Shown: positions 9,083-57,480 of the stretch, in pieces
How the letters are laid out: each line of letters begins with the position of its first letter
Numbering within the stretch: position 1 is the stretch's first letter
Assembly: GCA_964406675.1 (NCBI GenBank)
Contig: CAYOSP010000001.1
Span: 16,861 to 80,860 of the forward strand
DNA from: an uncultured Eubacteriales bacterium
GTDB lineage: Bacteria; Actinomycetota; Coriobacteriia; Anaerosomatales; JAUVQN01
DNA: 64,000 nt
Direction: 5' to 3'
Translations under genes and position numbers: made by a program
Notes under the pieces: generated by a model
What the model saw: only the letters and a program-made list of their open reading frames with translations
The model's database searches: none
What the model was told of the DNA's origin: nothing

Positions 9083-9108
<26 letters not shown>
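7966..9108 (+). CDS. BadF/BadG/BcrA/BcrD (HgdC-type) ATPase, a putative reductive activase, with a Cys-rich tail
   Basis: ATG 7966 lies after GGAGAGGAG. ASKHA motifs are present ([45 protein letters not shown]). The tail carries [15 protein letters not shown]...GGRCGKWE. Confidence 0.85.
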
Positions 9109-12047
<2,939 letters not shown>

Positions 12048-37368: not shown

Positions 37369-38334
37369 TCAGTCCCGCAGCGCTTTGCCGGTCAGGTGGA
37401 GGAAGACCGCCTCGAGGTCCGGCTCGTCCACGTCCACGCTGCTGACCGCCACCCCCAGGTCCGTGACGACGCCGAGTATCTCGGTCAGCTGCTCGGCCGC
37501 GTCGTCCACCAGGACCTCGATGCCCTGCTCGCCCACGGCCGCCTCGCGGACCCGGTCGATCCCCCGGACCGCCTCGGCCGCCGCCTGCAGGTCCCCGCTC
37601 GCGGTGAGGTGCACACGGTCGTGCCGGCCCACCATGCCCACCAGTTCGCGGCGCGTCCCTTCCGCCACCAGCGAGCCCTCGTCGATGATGCCCACACGGT
37701 CGCAGAGGCGCTCGGCCTCTTCCATGTAGTGCGTCGTGTACAGGACCGCCATGCCCTCCACGCTCAAGTGCTCGACGCTCTCCAGGATGGCGTTGCGGCT
37801 CTGCGGGTCCACGCCCACGGTCGGCTCGTCCAGGACGAGCAGGCGCGGCCGGTGGAGTAGGCCGATGCCGATGTTCAGCCGGCGCTTCATGCCGCCGGAG
37901 TACTCCTCGGTACGGTCGTCCGCGCGCTCGTCGAGGCCGATGATCCCGAGCACCTCCGCGATGCGGTCGTCGAGATCGCCCGAGCCGATCCCGTAGAGAC
38001 GCCCGAAGAACCTCAGGTTCTCGCGCGCGGTGAGATCCGGGTAGATCGCGATCTCCTGCGGGACGTAGCCGACGTGGCGCTTCGCCGCCACGCTGCGCGT
38101 GGTGAGCTCCTCGCCGTCCACGTACACCTCGCCGGCGTCGCGCTCGAGCAGACCGCAGATCATCGAGATGCTCGTGGTCTTGCCGGCCCCGTTGGGCCCC
38201 AGCAGGCCGTACGTCTCGCCCTCGCCGATACGGAATCCGACGTCGTCGACGGCCTGCACGTCGCCGAAGCGCTTCGACAGGCCCCGGCAGCCGAGGACGT
38301 ACCTCTCGCCGTCGTCCTCGGCGCGGTCCCGCAT
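37369..38334 (-). CDS. ABC transporter ATP-binding protein (DrrA/ABC-2 type)
   Basis: Walker A is GPNGAGKTT, the signature is YSGGMKRRL and Walker B is LLVLDEPT. I chose ATG 38334 as the start; upstream GTG alternatives exist. Confidence 0.88.
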   Translation of the reverse strand: MRDRAEDDGERYVLGCRGLSKRFGDVQAVDDVGFRIGEGETYGLLGPNGAGKTTSISMICGLLERDAGEVYVDGEELTTRSVAAKRHVGYVPQEIAIYPDLTARENLRFFGRLYGIGSGDLDDRIAEVLGIIGLDERADDRTEEYSGGMKRRLNIGIGLLHRPRLLVLDEPTVGVDPQSRNAILESVEHLSVEGMAVLYTTHYMEEAERLCDRVGIIDEGSLVAEGTRRELVGMVGRHDRVHLTASGDLQAAAEAVRGIDRVREAAVGEQGIEVLVDDAAEQLTEILGVVTDLGVAVSSVDVDEPDLEAVFLHLTGKALRD

Positions 38335-38473
38335 GCCGTCCGCCCCACTGTCCGCCGTGTTTCCTCCCACGCCGCCTCGCACCCTCTCTCGCACGCCGTC
38401 CCCTGAATCGACCGGACACCCAACGGGAAGATTACAGGTTGTGGGAACGGCGGCAAGTGGAAGGAGTCGGGAC

Positions 38474-39190
38474 ATGGCGGACAAGGAAGTGGGATGCGGG
38501 AAGCCGACCGGTAAGGCCGTGGGCGAGCAGGAGGCGGGCGGCTCGAAGACGCCGGCCACGGCCTCCGAGAGCGCGGCGGCGCCCGCACCGGTCACCCGGA
38601 TCATGGTGGGGAAGAAGGCGCCGGACTTCGAGGCCCCCAGCTTCCGGAACGGCGAGTTCGGGAGCGTCCAGCTGTCGGATCTCCTCGGGCGCTGGGTCAT
38701 GCTGTGCTTCTATCCCGGCGATCTCACCTTCGTTTGACCGACCGAGCTGTCGGCGGTCGCCGCAAGGTACAGCGAGCTGGAGGAGCTCGGCGTCGAGGTG
38801 ATCTCGATGAGCGTGGACAGCAAGTTCGTCCACAAGATCTGGAACGAGACCGAGCTGTCCAAGATGGTCGACGGGGGCATCCCCTACCACATGGCGTCGG
38901 ACGGCGCGGGTCACATCGGACGCGCGTACGGCGTGTACGACGGAGATGCGGGGGTGAACGTGAGGGGCCGCTTCCTCATCGACCCGGACGGCGTGATCCA
39001 GGCGATGGAGGTCCTCTCACCGCCGGTGGGACGCAACGTCGACGAGACGGTGCGCCAGGTCCAGGCGTTCCAGAAGGTGCGCGACTCCGGTGGGGCCGAG
39101 GCGACACCCTCGGGCTGGCAGCCGGGGGACGAGACACTCAAGCCCGGTCCCGATCTGGTCGGGCGGGTCTGGGAGCACTGGAAGCCTTAG
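38474..39190 (+). CDS. AhpC/Prx-family peroxiredoxin with in-frame TGA (38735-38737) at the peroxidatic Cys position; putative selenocysteine peroxiredoxin
   Basis: Track ORFs 38099..38737 and 38798..39190 are in the same frame. Read through, the sequence is CFYPGDLTFV-[TGA]-PTELSAVAARYSELEELGVEVISMSVDSKFVHKIW, which is colinear with the E. coli AhpC motif [14 protein letters not shown]. ATG 38474 follows GGAAGGAG. Confidence 0.8.
38736..38790 (+). promoter_or_regulatory. Candidate bacterial SECIS region downstream of the UGA
   Basis: A hand-folded hairpin spans 38748-38764 (UG-[U bulge]-CGGC / GGUC loop / GCCG-CA). Counting from the U of UGA, the GGUC loop occupies nt 21-24. Alternative hairpins lie at 38736-38758 and 38773-38789. 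Confidence 0.5.
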
Positions 39191-44384: not shown

Positions 44385-44464
44385 CGCGTCGGCTCCGTCA
44401 GTCCCAGCGCGTCGGCTCCGTCAGTCCCAGCGCGTCGGCTCCGTCAGTCCCAGCGCGTCGGCTC
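44385..44464. repeat. 23-nt tandem repeat (about 3.5 copies) copying the dnaB 3-prime end including its stop codon
   Basis: The unit cgcgtcggctccgtcagtcccag occurs at 44385, 44408 and 44431, with a partial fourth copy running into dnaB. The minus strand reads GAGCCGACGCGCTGGGACTGA (EPTRWD*). Confidence 0.92.
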
Positions 44465-45838
44465 GACGAACTTCGCGTAGCGATCCTTGAACAGGAGCTT
44501 CACCGTGCCCACCGGTCCGTTACGGTGCTTCGCGATGATGATCTCGGCCTCGCCCTTCCCGGGCATGCCCTCTCCTTCTTCGTCGAAGCGGTCCTCCACG
44601 TTGGTACGCGTGTCCCGATGGATGAACATGACCACGTCGGCGTCCTGCTCGATGGCGCCGGATTCACGAAGGTCGGAGAGGACGGGACGCTTCCCCTGAC
44701 GCTGCTCCACCGCGCGTGAGAGCTGAGAGAGTGCGAGCACGGGCAGTCCCAGCTCCTTGGCGAGCACCTTGAGCCCCCGGCTGATCTCGGCGATCTCCAC
44801 CTGCCGGTTCTCGGTCCTCCGGTTCTGTGGCTGCATGAGTTGCAGGTAATCCACGATGACCAGGCCTTCGCTCTTGTCCCGGAACAAGCGGCGCGCCTTG
44901 GCGCGAAGCTCGAGGATCGAGATGGCCGGGGTGTCGTCGACGTACAGCTCACACTTGCCGAGGCGACCCACCGCCTCATGCAGGGGATGCCATTCGCCGT
45001 CGCCGATATGGCCGGTCCGCATCTTGTGGGAATCGATACCCGCCTCGGACGCGAGGATCCGCTGGATCAGCTGCCAGCTCGACATCTCGAGACTGAAGAC
45101 GGCTACCGGGGTCCCCGCCTTCGCCGCGTTCACCGCCACGTTCAACGCGAGCGCCGTCTTACCGACGGAAGGCCTAGCCGCGAGGATGATGAGGTCGCTC
45201 TTCTGCAGCCCCGCGAGGTACTTGTTGTCGAGCTGCTTGAACCCCGTGGCGATACCGGTGAGGTGATCCTTGCGGTCGTAGAGCTCGCTGATGCGCTCAA
45301 GACCCTCCGTGAGCAGCGCCTCCGTGTCCTTGAAGTTCTCCGATATCCTCTGATTGGTCACCTCGAACACGGTCTTCTCGGCCTGTTCGATGATCTCGGG
45401 GAGGGTGTCGGCCGACTCGTACCCCATGCGCACGATATCGGTGGCCGCCGTGATGAGGTCGCGCAGCGTGGCGTCGCGCTTGACGATGTCCGCGTAGTAG
45501 CGGGCGTTGGCGGCTGTGGGGACGGTGTTGGTCACGGTGAGCAGGTACGGCTTGCCGCCCGCCGCCTCGATCTGGTCGACGGCCTCGAGCCGGTCGGCCA
45601 CCGTGACCGCGTCGACCGGCTCGCCGTGGTCGTAGAGGTGCTGGATCGCTTCGAAGATGCGTTGGTGGCGCGGGGTGTAGAAGTCCTTGGCTCGCAGCGA
45701 CGAGAGTCCCGTCTCGACGGCCCCGACGGACAAGAACATCGAGCCGAGCAGAGACTGCTCGGCATCGGTGTTATGCGGTGGGACCCTCTCGCCCGGTGAG
45801 ACGATACGGGGGCCTGACGCTCGTCTGGACTCGGCCAT
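44444..45838 (-). CDS. dnaB: Replicative DNA helicase
   Basis: Track ORF of 464 aa with PPHNTDAEQSLLGSM, Walker A ARPSVGKTA, DYLQLM and SQLSRAVEQR. Confidence 0.95.
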   Translation of the reverse strand: MAESRRASGPRIVSPGERVPPHNTDAEQSLLGSMFLSVGAVETGLSSLRAKDFYTPRHQRIFEAIQHLYDHGEPVDAVTVADRLEAVDQIEAAGGKPYLLTVTNTVPTAANARYYADIVKRDATLRDLITAATDIVRMGYESADTLPEIIEQAEKTVFEVTNQRISENFKDTEALLTEGLERISELYDRKDHLTGIATGFKQLDNKYLAGLQKSDLIILAARPSVGKTALALNVAVNAAKAGTPVAVFSLEMSSWQLIQRILASEAGIDSHKMRTGHIGDGEWHPLHEAVGRLGKCELYVDDTPAISILELRAKARRLFRDKSEGLVIVDYLQLMQPQNRRTENRQVEIAEISRGLKVLAKELGLPVLALSQLSRAVEQRQGKRPVLSDLRESGAIEQDADVVMFIHRDTRTNVEDRFDEEGEGMPGKGEAEIIIAKHRNGPVGTVKLLFKDRYAKFVEPTRWD

Positions 45839-45874
45839 CGGTACGGGCCCGCACTCGGTGCGGACCGCCCCCCT

Positions 45875-46504
45875 CTACAGTCCGCTCGGCGATCCGGCGA
45901 TCTCATCGCCGTCCGCCCCGGCCTCTTCCTTCTCTTCGACCTCTTCGCCCTCTTCCGTTCCTTCGGCCTCCTCGGTCTCCTCAAGGGAGGCCGCGGCCTC
46001 GATCTCGGCTGCCGCCTCTTCCATCAGGCGCGTTCGCACGTCCTCCTGCAGCTCGCCGCCCTCGGGAGTCACGCGCACGACCACGATGGCCTCGACGTCG
46101 GCGGACAGGCGGACCGTGATCTCGTGTTCGCCGATCTCCTTGATGTGACCGGCGACCAGCATCTTCTTGCGGTCCACGTCGGCTTCGAGTTGATCGAGCA
46201 GCGCGTCCTGGATCATCTGGGGGGTCACCGACCCGAACAGACGACCCTCCTCCCCCGCCTTGGCCTCGATCGTGACGACCTGACCGTCGACCAGGGAGGC
46301 GAGCTGCTCGGCTTCCGCGCGTCTCGCCGTCTCGCGCTTCTCGATGTTGGCGCGACGCGCCTCGAGCTGCTTCAGATTGCCCGAGCCGGCTTCGACCGCC
46401 AACTTCCTCGGGAACAGGTAGTTCCGGGCGTAGCCGCGAGCGACGTCGATCACGTCTCCCTCGTGGCCCTTGCCCTTCACTTCGTCCAGCAGGATCACTT
46501 TCAT
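45875..46504 (-). CDS. rplI: Ribosomal protein L9 with an acidic C-terminal extension of about 60 aa
   Basis: Trimmed to [18 protein letters not shown] (ATG 46504, GAGGAG upstream). The tail is [20 protein letters not shown]. Confidence 0.9.
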
Positions 46505-46557
46505 GGTCCGTCTACTCCTCATCCGCGTCGAAGCCGGATCCGGCTTCGAGAATGGTC

Positions 46558-47586
46558 TCACTGTACAGCATCGTTCTCATCCCCAGGTCCGTCCTCGGAC
46601 CCGCCTTCGGGCCCGTGCTCGGGCTCGTGCTCGGAACCGTCTTCGGACTCGTGCCCGGATCCGTTCTCTCCGTCTCTCGGCAGACCCCGGGAGTTGATCC
46701 AGAGGTCGGCCAGCCCCGCCACCCCGAGCGCGGGGAAGAGCACGCCGAGCCAGAGCATCAGACCGTATATCAACACCCTGAACAGCGGGCCCAGTTTCAA
46801 CCGCATGAACAGGGTCTCGGCCACGCCGAATCCCTGCACGCCCAGCACCGCCCAACTCAGCAGTGCGAGGTTCCAGCCGATCGCGGCGGCCCATCCGAGG
46901 GGTTCACCCGTCAATCGCGCGACCAGCAGCGAGCCCAACGCGGCGATCACCGGCCACATCCAGTGCGGACTCACGTCCACCTTCGCCACCGGGGTCAGCG
47001 TCGAGACCTTGCGCCCGAGCAGCCTGCCGATACGGCCGGCGAGCCAGACGCCCGCATAGGCCCCGGCCAGCGCCATCACGAGGAGCAGCGCCGGCCACGC
47101 CAGCGAGAGCACGTCCGCCACGCGCTGTAGCGCGGCCTCCGTCTCCACGCCGGTGGAGAGTTCGCCGGACCGCACCGCGGCCATCCACGCGTCCCCCACC
47201 GCCTTGAAGAACGACGCCGGACTCTGCCCCGCTCGCATGAGGTCGAACGTCATCCATGAGACCACGCCCGTGTACGACACCACCCCCACGATCGCGGCCA
47301 CCCGCCAGGCCTCGCGACGCTCCAACGCCTTGGCGGCCCACCAGACCACCGCCATCGTCGGCACCGCCATCACGGCAGCCAGCGGCTGGAGCGCCACCGC
47401 GACGACGACACACACGAGCGCCGTCCCCCCCGCCTGGTGCCACGACCTCCGGTACGTCAGGTAGGCGATGCCGCCCACCAGGACCGGGATCGCGACCGCG
47501 AGCAGCTCGAACAGCAGCGCGGCCGCGACCACACAGAGCATGGGGACGACCACGAGATCGGCCGCTTTCGAGCGCAGTCCGGCCAT
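46558..47586 (-). CDS. DUF2232 (YybS-like) polytopic membrane protein
   Basis: Trimmed to [11 protein letters not shown] (ATG 47586, 6 nt after the rpsR stop). It has multiple TM helices and an acidic His/Glu-rich tail. The position between rpsR and rplI is typical for this family. Confidence 0.65.
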
Positions 47587-47591
47587 CCCGA

Positions 47592-47843
47592 TCAGCGGCG
47601 TCGCCGGTCGCCGGTCGTGACCACGGGGACCGCGTACGGCAGCAACGCCATCTCGCGCGCACGCTTGACGGCCCTGGACACCTGATGCTGGTGCTGGGCA
47701 CACGTGCCCGTCACACGGCGCGGCTTGATCTTGCCGCGGTCCGTGGTGAACTTGCGCAGCAGCTGCAGGTCCTTGTAGTCCACGTAGTCGATATCCTCTT
47801 TGCAGAAGATGCAGTACTTCTTGCGCGTCCTGCGTCCATCCAT
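47592..47843 (-). CDS. rpsR: Ribosomal protein S18
   Basis: Track ORF of 83 aa with [33 protein letters not shown]. Confidence 0.93.
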
Positions 47844-47942
47844 CTCACATACCTCCTCTCGACCCGCCGAAGCGGGCGGACGTGTCGTCGGTCCCGGGCG
47901 AGGGGCGGCGGGAGGGTGCCGCCGCCGAAGCCCGGTGGTGCG

Positions 47943-48368
47943 TCAGAACGGGATCTCTTCCCCACCGGGGTCGTCGGACGCCGCGTCGGCCTCCGGGGCG
48001 CGGCTCGCGCCGCCTCCGGTACCGCGGCCCGAGTCGCCACGCGACCCGGTGAAGTCGATGTCGTCGGCGATCACCTCGATGGCCGAGCGCTTGCCGCCGT
48101 CGGGCGTCTCCCACTCGCGCCAGCGCAGCCGGCCGTCTACACCGATGGCGGTACCCTTCTGCACGTGGGGGGCGAGTCCCTCGCCACGGTTACCGAACAC
48201 CGTGACGTCGATGTAGTTCGGGATCTCCTCCCACTCACCCGTGCTCTGGTTCTTCTTCCGGTCGTTGAACGCGAGCCTCATCGAGAGGACGCTCAGCCCG
48301 GAGGCCGTCTGCCGAAGCTCGGGATCCTTGGTCAACCGGCCGGTCAATACCACTCTGTTGATACTCAT
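47943..48368 (-). CDS. ssb: Single-stranded DNA-binding protein
   Basis: Track ORF of 141 aa with MSINRVVLTGRLTKDPELR, a Gly-rich linker and the acidic tip GGEEIPF. Confidence 0.93.
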   Translation of the reverse strand: MSINRVVLTGRLTKDPELRQTASGLSVLSMRLAFNDRKKNQSTGEWEEIPNYIDVTVFGNRGEGLAPHVQKGTAIGVDGRLRWREWETPDGGKRSAIEVIADDIDFTGSRGDSGRGTGGGASRAPEADAASDDPGGEEIPF

Positions 48369-48435
48369 CGCTCCTCATTCACCTCACTGATGACGGTACT
48401 TCGCCGTCCGCGACGATCGTGCGCACACGCGCCGA

Positions 48436-48729
48436 TCAGGCCACGTGATCGAGTCGCACGATCATGAAGCGGACGACCGGATCGGAGATGTGGAGCACGC
48501 GGTCCAGCTCGGCTACCTCGGGAGGTCCGGCGTGGAAGGACACGACGACGTAGGTGCCGTCGCGATGCCCTTCGATCTCGTAGGCGAGCTTGCGCTTGCC
48601 CCATTCGTCGACGTCGTCGACGGTGCCGTCTTCGGCGGTGATGATCCCGCGGACCCTCTCCATGACGGAAGCCTTGGCTTCCTCGTCGAGGGACGGATCG
48701 AGCATGAGCATGAGTTCGTAGGCCTTCAA
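48436..48729 (-). CDS. rpsF: Ribosomal protein S6
   Basis: The track ORF starts at GTG 48738. However, TTG 48729 lies 8 nt after GGGAGG and gives the conserved N-terminus M-KAYELMLMLDP. Confidence 0.9.
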   Translation of the reverse strand: MKAYELMLMLDPSLDEEAKASVMERVRGIITAEDGTVDDVDEWGKRKLAYEIEGHRDGTYVVVSFHAGPPEVAELDRVLHISDPVVRFMIVRLDHVA

Positions 48730-48911
48730 GTTCTTCACCTCCCTCGGTCACATGGCCCCGGGACTTGAAGGCGAGCCCGGAGCAGGAAATGAGCCCGAGC
48801 AGTGTAGCACCCACGTCCCGTGCCCCACAAACCATGCATACACCGTGGGTGTGACATCACTGCGCTCCCGGTCGCCGCTTCCCGCCGTCCGATCCCGTCG
48901 CCGGACGACGA

Positions 48912-56772: not shown

Positions 56773-57480
56773 TTGTCCGAGAGGAGCACGACACCCCGGG
56801 CCGTCCTGGGCGAGAGCGCGCTGCTGCGCGGCTTCAGCGCGGAGGCGCTCGACCGGCTCGCGGCGTCGGCTCGCGCCGAACGTTTCGACCGCGGCTCGCT
56901 CCTGATCGCCGAGGGTGAGCCCGCCGAGCGCTTCGGGGTGATCGCCGCCGGGCGCGTGAACGTGTCGCACCTGCGGCCCGACGGACGTCGGGTCGCGCTC
57001 GAGACCGCCGAGAAGGGGGAGTCGTTCGCGGCGGTCGCCGCGCTCGCCGGCGGCCGCCACCCCGCCACCGTGGAAGCGGTCACCCCCGGTACGGCGGTCT
57101 GGGTGGAGCGCGACGACCTGCTCGCCGCGATCGAGCACGAACCGGCGGCGGCCAGGGTGCTCCTCCAGGACCTCGCGAGCCGGCTCGTCCGACTCACCGA
57201 CGTGGTGCGGACCCTGTCCCTGGACGTCCCCGGGCGCCTCGCCGGCTATCTCTTCGGAAGAGCGCTCTCCGTCGGGAAGGCGACACCCTCCGGTCTCGAG
57301 GTGGACCTCGGTATGACGAAGGCCGAGCTCGCGCAGAGCCTCGGGACCGTCCCGGAGACGCTCTCGCGCGCCCTCGCCCGACTCCGTGACGAGGGCGTCC
57401 TCGAGGTCCGCGGCGGCACCGTCCTCGTGTACGACGTGAGCGCCCTCGCGAAGATGGGTTCCGGCTACGAGGAGGCCTGA
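56773..57480 (+). CDS. Crp/Fnr-family transcriptional regulator
   Basis: It has a cNMP-binding-like beta-roll (FDRGSLLIAEGEPAERFGVIAAGRV) and an HTH with an FNR-type ETLSR recognition motif. I prefer TTG 56773 (after GGGGAGG) as the start; ATG 56737 is the alternative. Confidence 0.8.
   Translation: MSERSTTPRAVLGESALLRGFSAEALDRLAASARAERFDRGSLLIAEGEPAERFGVIAAGRVNVSHLRPDGRRVALETAEKGESFAAVAALAGGRHPATVEAVTPGTAVWVERDDLLAAIEHEPAAARVLLQDLASRLVRLTDVVRTLSLDVPGRLAGYLFGRALSVGKATPSGLEVDLGMTKAELAQSLGTVPETLSRALARLRDEGVLEVRGGTVLVYDVSALAKMGSGYEEA

What the first reader, a model, noticed from the sequence alone, without database searches (positions are those of the whole stretch)
38474..39190. Peroxiredoxin with in-frame UGA at the peroxidatic cysteine position: a likely selenocysteine (Sec) peroxiredoxin
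The ORF track splits this gene into 38099..38737 and 38798..39190, but both pieces are in the same frame. The only interruption is TGA at 38735-38737. Read through, the protein is colinear with 2-Cys AhpC/Prx over its whole length. The sequence FYPGDLTFV-[UGA]-PTELSAVAARYSELEELGVEVISMSVDSKFVHKIW aligns to E. coli AhpC [45 protein letters not shown]. The C-terminal LIDPDGVIQAMEV...DLVGRV also aligns. The UGA therefore sits exactly where the catalytic Cys belongs, which is the classic signature of Cys-to-Sec recoding. The roughly 150 codons downstream of the UGA stay open and conserved, which argues against a dead gene. Sec-containing peroxiredoxins are known (PrxU of Eubacterium acidaminophilum) but rare, and automated annotation usually truncates them. 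In a GC-rich actinobacterium-like genome this would be a notable selenoprotein.
Basis: partly seen in the sequence, partly recalled or inferred. Interest (0 to 1): 0.85.

Follow-up and report, generated by a model that had tools for sequence, protein, structure and literature searches.

The report
Selenocysteine peroxiredoxin (PrxU) gene
This is an intact gene for PrxU, a known peroxide-detoxifying enzyme whose catalytic residue is selenocysteine encoded by an in-frame UGA, found here in an uncultured Coriobacteriia-like bacterium; it is a correct observation but an ordinary member of a widespread, already catalogued family.

Summary
Window 38474..39190 (+) is one reading frame with a single internal TGA at 38735-38737, exactly at the peroxidatic-Cys column (PGDLTFV-U-PTE).

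The read-through protein passes NCBI's curated PrxU equivalog model (378.5 bits, cutoff 270) and fails the AhpC model (187 against 272).

Of 161 related loci checked in genomes and metagenomes, 160 carry TGA at this codon and one carries TAA.

A hairpin follows the UGA in the Sec forms: a 4-7 bp stem capped by a GGUC or AGUU loop. It shows strong compensatory covariation. A covariance model built without the window finds only this site in the 64 kb (54 bits, E about 4e-12). Five Cys-codon homologues score 19-38 bits and have broken stems.

TGA is an ordinary stop elsewhere in the window, so the genetic code is standard.

No selA, selB, selD or tRNA-Sec gene lies in the window, so the presence of decoding machinery remains untested.

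- The family is not rare.
- The protein is not a typical 2-Cys Prx. The C-terminal resolving Cys is Thr211, and an invariant N-terminal Cys8 is present instead.
- NCBI already has an annotation model for it.

Verdict: a new member of a known kind, of low-to-moderate interest.

The parts
38460..38466 (+). Shine-Dalgarno sequence GAAGGAG, 7 nt upstream of the ATG
   Evidence: Read directly. The start is consistent with homologues that begin M-A-x-x-x-x-G-C.
38474..39190 (+). prxU coding sequence: 238 codons including UGA(Sec88), plus a TAG stop
   Evidence: NCBIfam NF040737 peroxi_PrxU scores 378.5 bits against a cutoff of 270, covering residues 6-237. Pfam AhpC-TSA and 1-cysPrx_C also match.
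38492..38512 (+). N-terminal motif GCGKPTG with Cys8 (38495-38497), on an extension of about 40 residues that AhpC lacks
   Evidence: Cys8 is invariant in 60 full-length family members. It is present in 156 of 159 Sec-form loci. A role as resolving Cys is inferred, not shown.
38714..38737 (+). Active-site motif P81-G-D-L-T85-F-V-U88 (PxxxTxxU)
   Evidence: P81, T85, F86 and V87 are invariant columns.
38735..38737 (+). In-frame UGA, read as selenocysteine 88 (the peroxidatic residue)
   Evidence: TGA is at the same codon in 160 of 161 related loci.
38748..38765 (+). SECIS-like hairpin. The core stem is C17-G28, G18-C27, G19-C26, C20-G25 (38751-38754 with 38759-38762). The loop is GGUC (38755-38758). 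The outer pair is U14-A31. Positions 15-30 and 16-29 are mismatched in this copy.
   Evidence: Covariation on 80 sequences scores 0.425 against 0.135 in shuffles (0 of 500 reach it), and slid controls stay at or below 0.128. Pair 18-27 is paired in 79 of 79 with four pair types. Loop positions 21 and 24 are G..C in 51 and A..U in 28.
38729..38782 (+). Stretch matched by the covariance model of the PrxU UGA-plus-hairpin region, built from 79 other loci
   Evidence: 54.1 bits, E 4e-12, and the only full-length match in the window. Sec forms elsewhere score 53.5-72.6 bits and Cys forms 18.9-37.5 bits.
38963..38965 (+). Codon for Arg164, the conserved active-site arginine of peroxiredoxins (VRGRF)
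   Evidence: An invariant column. It aligns with the RG(T)F arginine of AhpC 1WE0.
39104..39106 (+). Codon for Thr211, at the position of the C-terminal resolving Cys of typical 2-Cys Prx (EATPSGW against EVCPAKW)
   Evidence: Alignment to 1WE0. In 159 Sec-form loci this column is T in 103, C in 27, M in 13, A in 3 and I in 2.

Best explanation
The gene encodes PrxU, a thioredoxin-fold peroxidase of the AhpC/Prx1 lineage whose peroxidatic residue is selenocysteine.

Inferred decoding, by analogy with characterised bacterial Sec decoding: when a ribosome reaches UGA88, the small hairpin 14-31 nt downstream, with a GGUC loop exposing G22 and U23, recruits SelB.GTP.Sec-tRNA(Sec). Sec is inserted instead of termination occurring. 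A more stable competing fold that pairs the UGA-proximal bases with the hairpin's 5' arm would be melted by the ribosome sitting on the UGA.

Inferred chemistry, from peroxiredoxin chemistry and residue conservation: the selenolate of Sec88 is activated by Thr85 and Arg164 in the PxxxTxxU pocket and reduces H2O2 or organic hydroperoxide, giving a selenenic acid. This is resolved by a thiol and finally reduced by thioredoxin. Because the canonical C-terminal resolving Cys is Thr211, and Cys8 on an N-terminal tether is invariant across the family, Cys8 is the most likely resolving residue, forming a Se-S bond.

Shown here: the UGA, family membership, the conserved covarying hairpin, intact downstream coding sequence, and a standard genetic code. 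Not shown: that the organism has selA, selB, selC and selD, and that selenium is actually incorporated.
For: - Family: the PrxU equivalog HMM scores 378.5 bits against a cutoff of 270.
- Recoding site: TGA is at the same codon in 79 of 79 genome loci plus L018, and in 78 of 79 metagenome loci plus L142. The 'W' at this column in 78 of 120 database homologues is TGA mistranslated by gene callers, as shown for P0022.
- RNA signal: the hairpin covaries strongly, while the rival helix does not. A model built without the window hits only 38729-38782 (54.1 bits, E 4e-12). Five Cys-codon homologues score 18.9-37.5 bits with disrupted stems.
- Not decayed: there is no other disruption, GC3 downstream is 0.98, and all 26 family-invariant residues downstream of the UGA are retained. 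A Shine-Dalgarno sequence and ATG are present.
- Standard code: six neighbouring genes end in TGA.
- Literature: Sec-Prx is an experimentally verified bacterial selenoprotein family with the TxxU motif (PMC13188914, PMC9312934). Actinobacteria were listed among the selenoprotein-rich phyla (PMC1794560).
Against: - No selA, selB, selD or tRNA-Sec gene lies in the 64 kb, and the rest of the genome could not be searched.
- This copy's hairpin is at the weak end of the family. Only four G-C pairs plus one outer pair form, with two mismatches. Its isolated folding energy is not unusual (z -0.44).
- The minimum-free-energy fold of the region is a different helix.
- No close orthologue (above about 74% identity) was found.
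- The nearest relatives of the host (ABC ATPase 74-76% identical) do not have prxU at the syntenic place. Conservation within the lineage is therefore not shown.
- No Rfam SECIS family matches.
Confidence: 0.87

Rival explanations
1. Relic gene. The lineage inherited or acquired a prxU gene but lacks, or has lost, the Sec-insertion machinery. Translation then stops at codon 88 and the gene is a functionless or decaying pseudogene.
For: No Sec machinery is in the window. The hairpin has two mismatched pairs and scores at the bottom of the Sec-form range. Relatives lack prxU at the syntenic position, which is compatible with a recent transfer.
Against: There is no second lesion in 150 downstream codons. 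All invariant residues are kept. GC3 of 0.98 matches host genes, which argues for long residence under selection. The hairpin core and the GGUC loop are intact.
Confidence: 0.07
2. Sequencing or assembly error, or a very recent point mutation, turned a Cys codon (TGC or TGT) into TGA in an ordinary Cys-type peroxiredoxin.
For: A single base separates TGA from TGC or TGT. Rare one-step variants at this codon do occur in public data: TAA in L128, TCA in L173 and AGA in L174.
Against: The gene carries the hairpin that is specific to UGA forms and scores 54 bits. Real Cys forms score 19-38 bits and lack the hairpin. In addition, 160 of 161 nearest relatives have TGA.
Confidence: 0.02
3. UGA is not a stop in this organism (genetic code 4 or 25), so the codon is read as Trp or Gly.
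For: Many database entries of the family show W at this column.
Against: That W comes from gene callers applying code 4 to short contigs: the DNA is TGA and the record does not translate under code 11. In the window, TGA terminates hisG, dnaB, trkA, ssb, rpsR and the M28 peptidase gene. A Trp or Gly at the peroxidatic position would kill the enzyme.
Confidence: 0.01
4. Two separate products: a short N-terminal peptide ending at the TGA and an independent protein started at GTG 38798, as the ORF track suggests.
For: Mechanical ORF listing gives 38099..38737 and 38798..39190.
Against: Neither piece is a complete thioredoxin fold, since the Pfam domain spans residues 45-177 across the TGA. The 60 nt between the pieces are in frame, conserved and code for family residues. 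No ribosome-binding site was looked for or seen before 38798.
Confidence: 0.02

Closest known systems
PrxU, the selenocysteine peroxiredoxin of Eubacterium acidaminophilum (Sohling et al. 2001, Biol Chem 382:979, cited in PMC13188914 and PMC9312934); NCBIfam NF040737 'peroxi_PrxU'
   Same: It is in the same curated family (378.5 bits against a cutoff of 270, aligned over 230 of 233 model positions). The UGA is at the peroxidatic position in a TxxU motif. The same hairpin follows the UGA, and the same N-terminal Cys motif is present.
   Different: The host is a GC-rich uncultured Coriobacteriia-like actinobacterium rather than a clostridial amino-acid fermenter. The protein is at most about 74% identical to any sequence found. 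Its hairpin has two mismatched pairs. As I recall, the E. acidaminophilum protein was reported as 203 residues, that is, without the N-terminal extension; I could not check this.
Typical 2-Cys peroxiredoxin / AhpC (TIGR03137; e.g. Amphibacillus xylanus AhpC, PDB 1WE0; Salmonella AhpC, 1YEP)
   Same: It has the same fold and the same active-site Pro, Thr and Arg, and is colinear over residues 44-232 (E 1.5e-45).
   Different: It scores below the AhpC equivalog cutoff (187 against 272). Sec replaces the peroxidatic Cys. The C-terminal resolving Cys is Thr211. It has an extra N-terminal extension of about 40 residues with an invariant Cys. No ahpF gene is nearby.
Bacterial SECIS element of E. coli fdhF (a hairpin after the UGA whose GGUC apical loop presents G23 and U24 to SelB; recalled from the literature, not tested here)
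   Same: A hairpin lies directly 3' of the UGA inside the coding sequence. The loop is GGUC, with G and U at +22 and +23 from the U of UGA. The first and last loop bases covary as G..C or A..U.
   Different: The G-U dinucleotide is one nucleotide closer to the UGA. The stem is shorter. No bulged U is conserved across the family. No Rfam SECIS model matches.
Other Sec-containing Prx-like families (Prx-like thiol:disulfide oxidoreductase UxxC; Prx-SUH NF045827; UGC-containing Prx-like), listed in PMC13188914 and PMC9312934
   Same: All have a thioredoxin-fold AhpC-TSA domain containing Sec.
   Different: Their Sec motif and position differ. The Prx-SUH model scores only 20.9 bits here against a cutoff of 298.

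Membership tests
PrxU (NCBIfam NF040737, Sec-type thioredoxin-dependent peroxiredoxin) | Whole-protein score above the curated equivalog cutoff | tested here: met
   378.5 bits against a cutoff of 270, residues 6-237 on model positions 2-230 of 233.
PrxU (NCBIfam NF040737, Sec-type thioredoxin-dependent peroxiredoxin) | In-frame UGA at the peroxidatic position of the PxxxTxxU motif | tested here: met
   TGA at 38735-38737 in PGDLTFV-U. The same codon is TGA in 160 of 161 relatives.
PrxU (NCBIfam NF040737, Sec-type thioredoxin-dependent peroxiredoxin) | SECIS-type hairpin immediately downstream of the UGA | tested here: met
   Family covariation is shown. A model built without the window scores 54.1 bits, E 4e-12, at 38729-38782. 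Cys forms score 18.9-37.5 bits. Caveat: 2 of the 7 modelled pairs are mismatched in this copy.
PrxU (NCBIfam NF040737, Sec-type thioredoxin-dependent peroxiredoxin) | N-terminal extension with a conserved Cys (GC[AG][RK]PTG) | tested here: met
   Cys8 lies in GCGKPTG. The column is invariant in 60 full-length members and present in 156 of 159 Sec loci.
PrxU (NCBIfam NF040737, Sec-type thioredoxin-dependent peroxiredoxin) | Host encodes the Sec machinery (selA, selB, selC, selD) | not testable with these tools
   None of these genes is in the 64 kb. The source genome is not in genome contigs, and only a 4.4 kb Logan contig and a 1.4 kb JGI contig of near-identical organisms were found.
PrxU (NCBIfam NF040737, Sec-type thioredoxin-dependent peroxiredoxin) | Selenium actually incorporated; thioredoxin-dependent peroxidase activity | not testable with these tools
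   This needs 75Se labelling, LC-MS/MS and an enzyme assay.
AhpC / typical 2-Cys peroxiredoxin (TIGR03137) | Score above the AhpC equivalog cutoff | tested here: not met
   187.3 bits against a cutoff of 272.
AhpC / typical 2-Cys peroxiredoxin (TIGR03137) | C-terminal resolving Cys (VCP motif) pairing with the peroxidatic Cys of the partner subunit | tested here: not met
   EATPSGW has Thr211 where 1WE0 has EVCPAKW. The family column is T in 103 of 159 loci.
AhpC / typical 2-Cys peroxiredoxin (TIGR03137) | Conserved active-site Pro, Thr and Arg in a thioredoxin fold | tested here: met
   P81, T85 and R164 are invariant columns. AhpC-TSA matches with E 8.6e-36.
Rfam bacterial SECIS families | Match to a curated covariance model | tested here: not met
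   Nothing reaches the gathering score in the window. No SECIS family appears even at E up to 10 in 38650-38850.

The most novel reading that the evidence does not exclude
The PrxU family, including this gene, may resolve its selenenic acid through the invariant Cys on a flexible N-terminal tether (Cys8 here) rather than through the C-terminal Cys of typical 2-Cys peroxiredoxins. This would be an undescribed resolving-Cys topology in the Prx1/AhpC lineage. This copy would also be a laterally acquired Sec-peroxiredoxin in an uncultured Coriobacteriia clade whose close relatives lack it at the same locus.
Probability: 0.3. Interest if true: 0.45.

Novelty: new member of a known kind. Interest (0 to 1): 0.25.

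Why it matters
Practically, generic ORF callers split or truncate this gene, or translate the UGA as Trp (78 of the 120 best database homologues show W). Recognising it corrects the annotation and marks the organism as a probable selenium user.

Biologically it adds little.

Two side products could interest specialists:
- A clean, strongly covarying SECIS model for the family, which separates Sec forms from Cys forms.
- The observation that the canonical resolving Cys is usually absent while an N-terminal tethered Cys is invariant.

Tried and rejected
- An exact 54-mer search of GTDB genomes for the source genome found nothing.
- A look-up of the window's SSB protein gave only a 4.4 kb Logan contig.
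- I searched for Sec machinery in the window by tRNA scan, Rfam and Pfam scans of about 30 ORFs. None was found. The AIRS-domain protein at 9086-11581 is PurL, not SelD.
- I searched for a second selenoprotein gene in the window by looking for in-frame stops flanked by coding-type composition. Only the prxU UGA qualified, and the same-frame ORF pairs are ordinary neighbouring genes.
- Single-sequence folding of the region is uninformative: z-scores are -0.4 to -1.9, and the MFE is a rival helix. That rival helix shows no covariation and was rejected.
- Rfam at a permissive threshold gave no SECIS family, only noise.
- The synteny test in host relatives via the neighbouring ABC ATPase showed relatives at 74-76% identity with no prxU beside the operon. 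The 97% relative's contig is too short. No fetched PrxU locus shares the window's neighbours.
The geometry of Cys8 relative to Sec88 was therefore not examined.
- A second hairpin hit at 57026-57043 has no UGA upstream and was dismissed as chance.

Full report
1. THE OBSERVATION

Window 38474..39190 on the + strand translates as 238 codons plus a TAG stop. The single internal stop is TGA at 38735-38737. A Shine-Dalgarno sequence GAAGGAG lies 7 nt before that ATG.

The TGA sits in FYPGDLTFV-*-PTE, the PxxxTxxC peroxidatic motif. Pfam AhpC-TSA matches residues 45-177 straight across it (E 8.6e-36), followed by the 1-cysPrx_C domain.

A scan of all in-frame stops in the window looked for coding-type composition on both sides. 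It found this one (GC3 0.90 before, 0.98 after) and two ordinary gene junctions.

2. WHAT IT IS

With Cys written at the TGA, the protein scores 378.5 bits on NCBIfam NF040737 'peroxi_PrxU'. This is an equivalog model with a cutoff of 270, and 230 of its 233 positions are aligned. The AhpC equivalog TIGR03137 scores only 187 bits against a cutoff of 272.

The closest solved structures are AhpC and typical 2-Cys peroxiredoxins, for example 1WE0 at E 1.5e-45 over residues 44-232. No Sec-type peroxiredoxin chain appeared among the matches.

A search of 5.8 billion proteins gave thousands of relatives, the best 55-74% identical. At the peroxidatic column 78 of the best 120 show W, 39 show C, and one each shows S, L and R. 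The W is an artefact. For P0022, the closest homologue, the DNA has TGA and the record does not translate under code 11.

3. RELATIVES AT THE DNA LEVEL

A scan of one genome per GTDB species found at least 582 relatives. Of the best 80, all carry TGA at this codon: 79 by motif and L018 by inspection. They come from Thermodesulfobacteriota and Desulfobacterota, Chloroflexota, Ignavibacteria, Calditrichota, Spirochaetota, NC10, Acidobacteriota, Zixibacteria, KSB1, Synergistota, Cloacimonadota, Thauera, Thiobacillus and others.

A scan of JGI metagenomes found at least 526 relatives. Of the best 80, 79 have TGA and one (L128) has TAA.

The family is therefore widespread, and Sec is the rule among the window protein's nearest relatives.

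Literature agrees:
- Peroxiredoxin with a TxxU motif is listed among the experimentally verified prokaryotic selenoproteins (PMC13188914, PMC9312934, citing Sohling et al. 2001).
- Twelve Sec-Prx genes were already counted in 2006, when Actinobacteria were called one of three selenoprotein-rich phyla (PMC1794560).
- PrxU has been seen as an induced protein in Sulfobacillus proteomics (PMC7409299).

4. THE RECODING SIGNAL

I aligned 54 nt around the UGA from the window and 79 genome loci, without gaps. This shows a hairpin at positions 14-31, counting the U of UGA as 1. The stem has up to 7 pairs and closes a four-base loop, GGUC in 52 sequences and AGUU in 28.

Covariation is strong:
- 85.7% of cells are paired.
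- The covariation score is 0.425 against 0.135 in shuffles (0 of 500 reach it), and at most 0.128 when the partners are slid.
- Pair 18-27, both third codon positions, is paired in 79 of 79 sequences with four pair types.
- Pair 15-30 shows four pair types.
- Loop positions 21 and 24 switch together, G..C or A..U.

From memory, a GGUC loop presenting G and U to SelB is the hallmark of the E. coli fdhF SECIS. Here the G-U is at +22 and +23.

The minimum-free-energy fold of the window's own sequence is a different helix, positions 2-11 with 16-24. On the alignment that helix shows no covariation: its two variable pairs are unpaired in 40-50% of sequences. It would in any case be opened by a ribosome positioned on the UGA (inference).

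A covariance model built from the 79 other loci only finds one full-length match in the 64 kb. It lies at exactly 38729-38782 and scores 54.1 bits, E about 4e-12.

As a control I fetched five homologues with a real Cys codon: TGC or TGT in L082, L083, L170, L171 and L172. They score 18.9-37.5 bits with disrupted stems. Further Sec forms score 53.5-72.6 bits.

The window's copy is at the low end of the Sec range. It keeps four G-C pairs, the GGUC loop and the U14-A31 pair, but has mismatches at 15-30 and 16-29. Rfam has no model that matches.

5. THE GENE IS NOT DECAYING, AND THE CODE IS STANDARD

There is no second lesion. All 26 family-invariant residues downstream of the UGA are present, including the active-site Arg164. 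TGA terminates hisG, dnaB, trkA, ssb, rpsR and a peptidase gene in the same window. Reassignment of UGA is therefore excluded.

6. HOST AND CONTEXT

The window is 69.8% G+C. It carries:
- purine-biosynthesis genes and hisG;
- a RACo-type activase, radical-SAM enzymes and a 2-hydroxyacyl-CoA dehydratase-type activase, which suggest an anaerobe;
- the rpsF-ssb-rpsR-DUF2232-rplI-dnaB cluster;
- TrkA genes and regulators.

Its PurA is 80-85% identical to proteins of uncultured Coriobacteriia and Actinomycetota MAGs.

prxU lies between a divergently transcribed ABC-2 exporter operon and a convergent PAS histidine kinase gene. No functional link is evident.

Relatives whose ABC ATPase is 74-76% identical have no prxU beside that operon. 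The 97% relative's contig is too short to tell. None of the 160 PrxU loci shares the window's neighbours. The best protein matches, up to 68-69% over the full length, are from other phyla. Lateral acquisition is plausible, but the host-like GC3 argues against a recent event.

7. WHAT COULD NOT BE SHOWN

No selA, selB, selD or tRNA-Sec gene is in the window: the only tRNA is tRNA-Gly, and the only AIRS protein is PurL. Whether the organism can decode the UGA rests on indirect evidence only.

8. MECHANISM

Inferred decoding: SelB with Sec-tRNA(Sec) binds the GGUC hairpin as the ribosome reaches UGA88 and inserts Sec.

Inferred chemistry: Sec88 sits in the P81-T85-U88/R164 pocket and reduces peroxide, giving a selenenic acid. 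A thiol resolves it, and thioredoxin recycles the enzyme. 'Thioredoxin-dependent' is the family's curated name.

The protein is not a typical 2-Cys Prx. The C-terminal resolving Cys is Thr211. Across 159 Sec-form loci that column is T in 103, C in 27, M in 13, A in 3 and I in 2. In contrast, an N-terminal extension of about 40 residues carries a Cys in the motif GC[AG][RK]PTG. This Cys is present in 156 of 159 loci and is an invariant column in 60 full-length members, Cys forms included. I therefore propose Cys8 as the resolving residue. This is conjecture from conservation.

9. VERDICT

The statements that Sec-Prx is rare, that this is a 2-Cys AhpC type and that annotation lacks a model for it do not hold. 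This is a new member of a known, widespread and curated selenoprotein family, in a host clade where it may not have been recorded.

Confidence that it is a genuine, functional Sec-PrxU gene is about 0.87. The main residual doubt is the untested presence of the Sec machinery. Interest is low to moderate.

Noticed in passing
L128:10235-10288 (JGI contig Ga0272442_10000562, 58 kb, 68% G+C): A PrxU orthologue has TAA instead of TGA at the Sec codon. Its reading frame is otherwise intact, its GGUC hairpin is intact, and the model scores 53.5 bits. It could be a base error, a fresh pseudogene or a case of UAA-programmed Sec (such tRNA-Sec variants have been reported, from memory: Mukai et al. 2016). 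No tRNA gene is in the 14 kb held.
   Followed up: partly
L173:633-635 and L174:245-247 (homologues P0029 and P0111): Database homologues with Ser or Arg at the peroxidatic column carry TCA and AGA, each one base away from TGA. L174 still has a perfect AGUU hairpin, whereas L173's stem is partly degraded. They look like recent mutations or errors of a Sec codon. P0083 (Leu) was not checked.
   Followed up: partly
window 38492-38512 and the family alignment A4: An invariant Cys in an N-terminal GC[AG][RK]PTG motif sits on a variable, charged linker upstream of the Prx domain. It is present in both Sec and Cys forms, while the canonical C-terminal resolving Cys is mostly replaced by Thr. Many database gene calls start at an internal Met and miss this extension.
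   Followed up: partly
window 38736-38758: The most stable local fold (-18.3 kcal/mol) pairs GACCG/CCGA, just after and overlapping the UGA, with UCGG/CGGUC. This sequesters the GGUC loop. It does not covary across the family but is possible in many members. It might modulate access to the SECIS hairpin.
   Followed up: partly
window 57026-57043 (+): A hairpin UCGCGGC-GGUC-GCCGCGC lies inside the Crp-like regulator gene and is a weak hit of the hairpin part of the model (14.9 bits, E 0.04). There is no UGA upstream, so it is judged a chance product of Ala-Ala-Val-Ala-Ala codons in GC-rich DNA.
   Followed up: yes
L082:6061-6723 (Desulfoferula mesophila AP028679.1): A Cys-form prxU-family gene lies 2.3 kb from a gene with AIRS and AIRS_C domains (348 aa, the size of selenophosphate synthetase SelD). 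Its identity was not checked.
   Followed up: no
L164 (JGI 3300051636, Ga0534206_154987) and L001 (Logan SRR7048218_125356): Two independent public samples hold short contigs from the same or a nearly identical organism. One has an ABC ATPase 97% identical and the other an identical SSB. These samples could be mined for the rest of the genome, including the sel genes.
   Followed up: no
window 44444-48747 (-): The gene order rpsF-ssb-rpsR-DUF2232(yybS-like)-rplI-dnaB resembles the Firmicutes arrangement, with a membrane protein inserted between rpsR and rplI, although PurA places the organism in Coriobacteriia.
   Followed up: no
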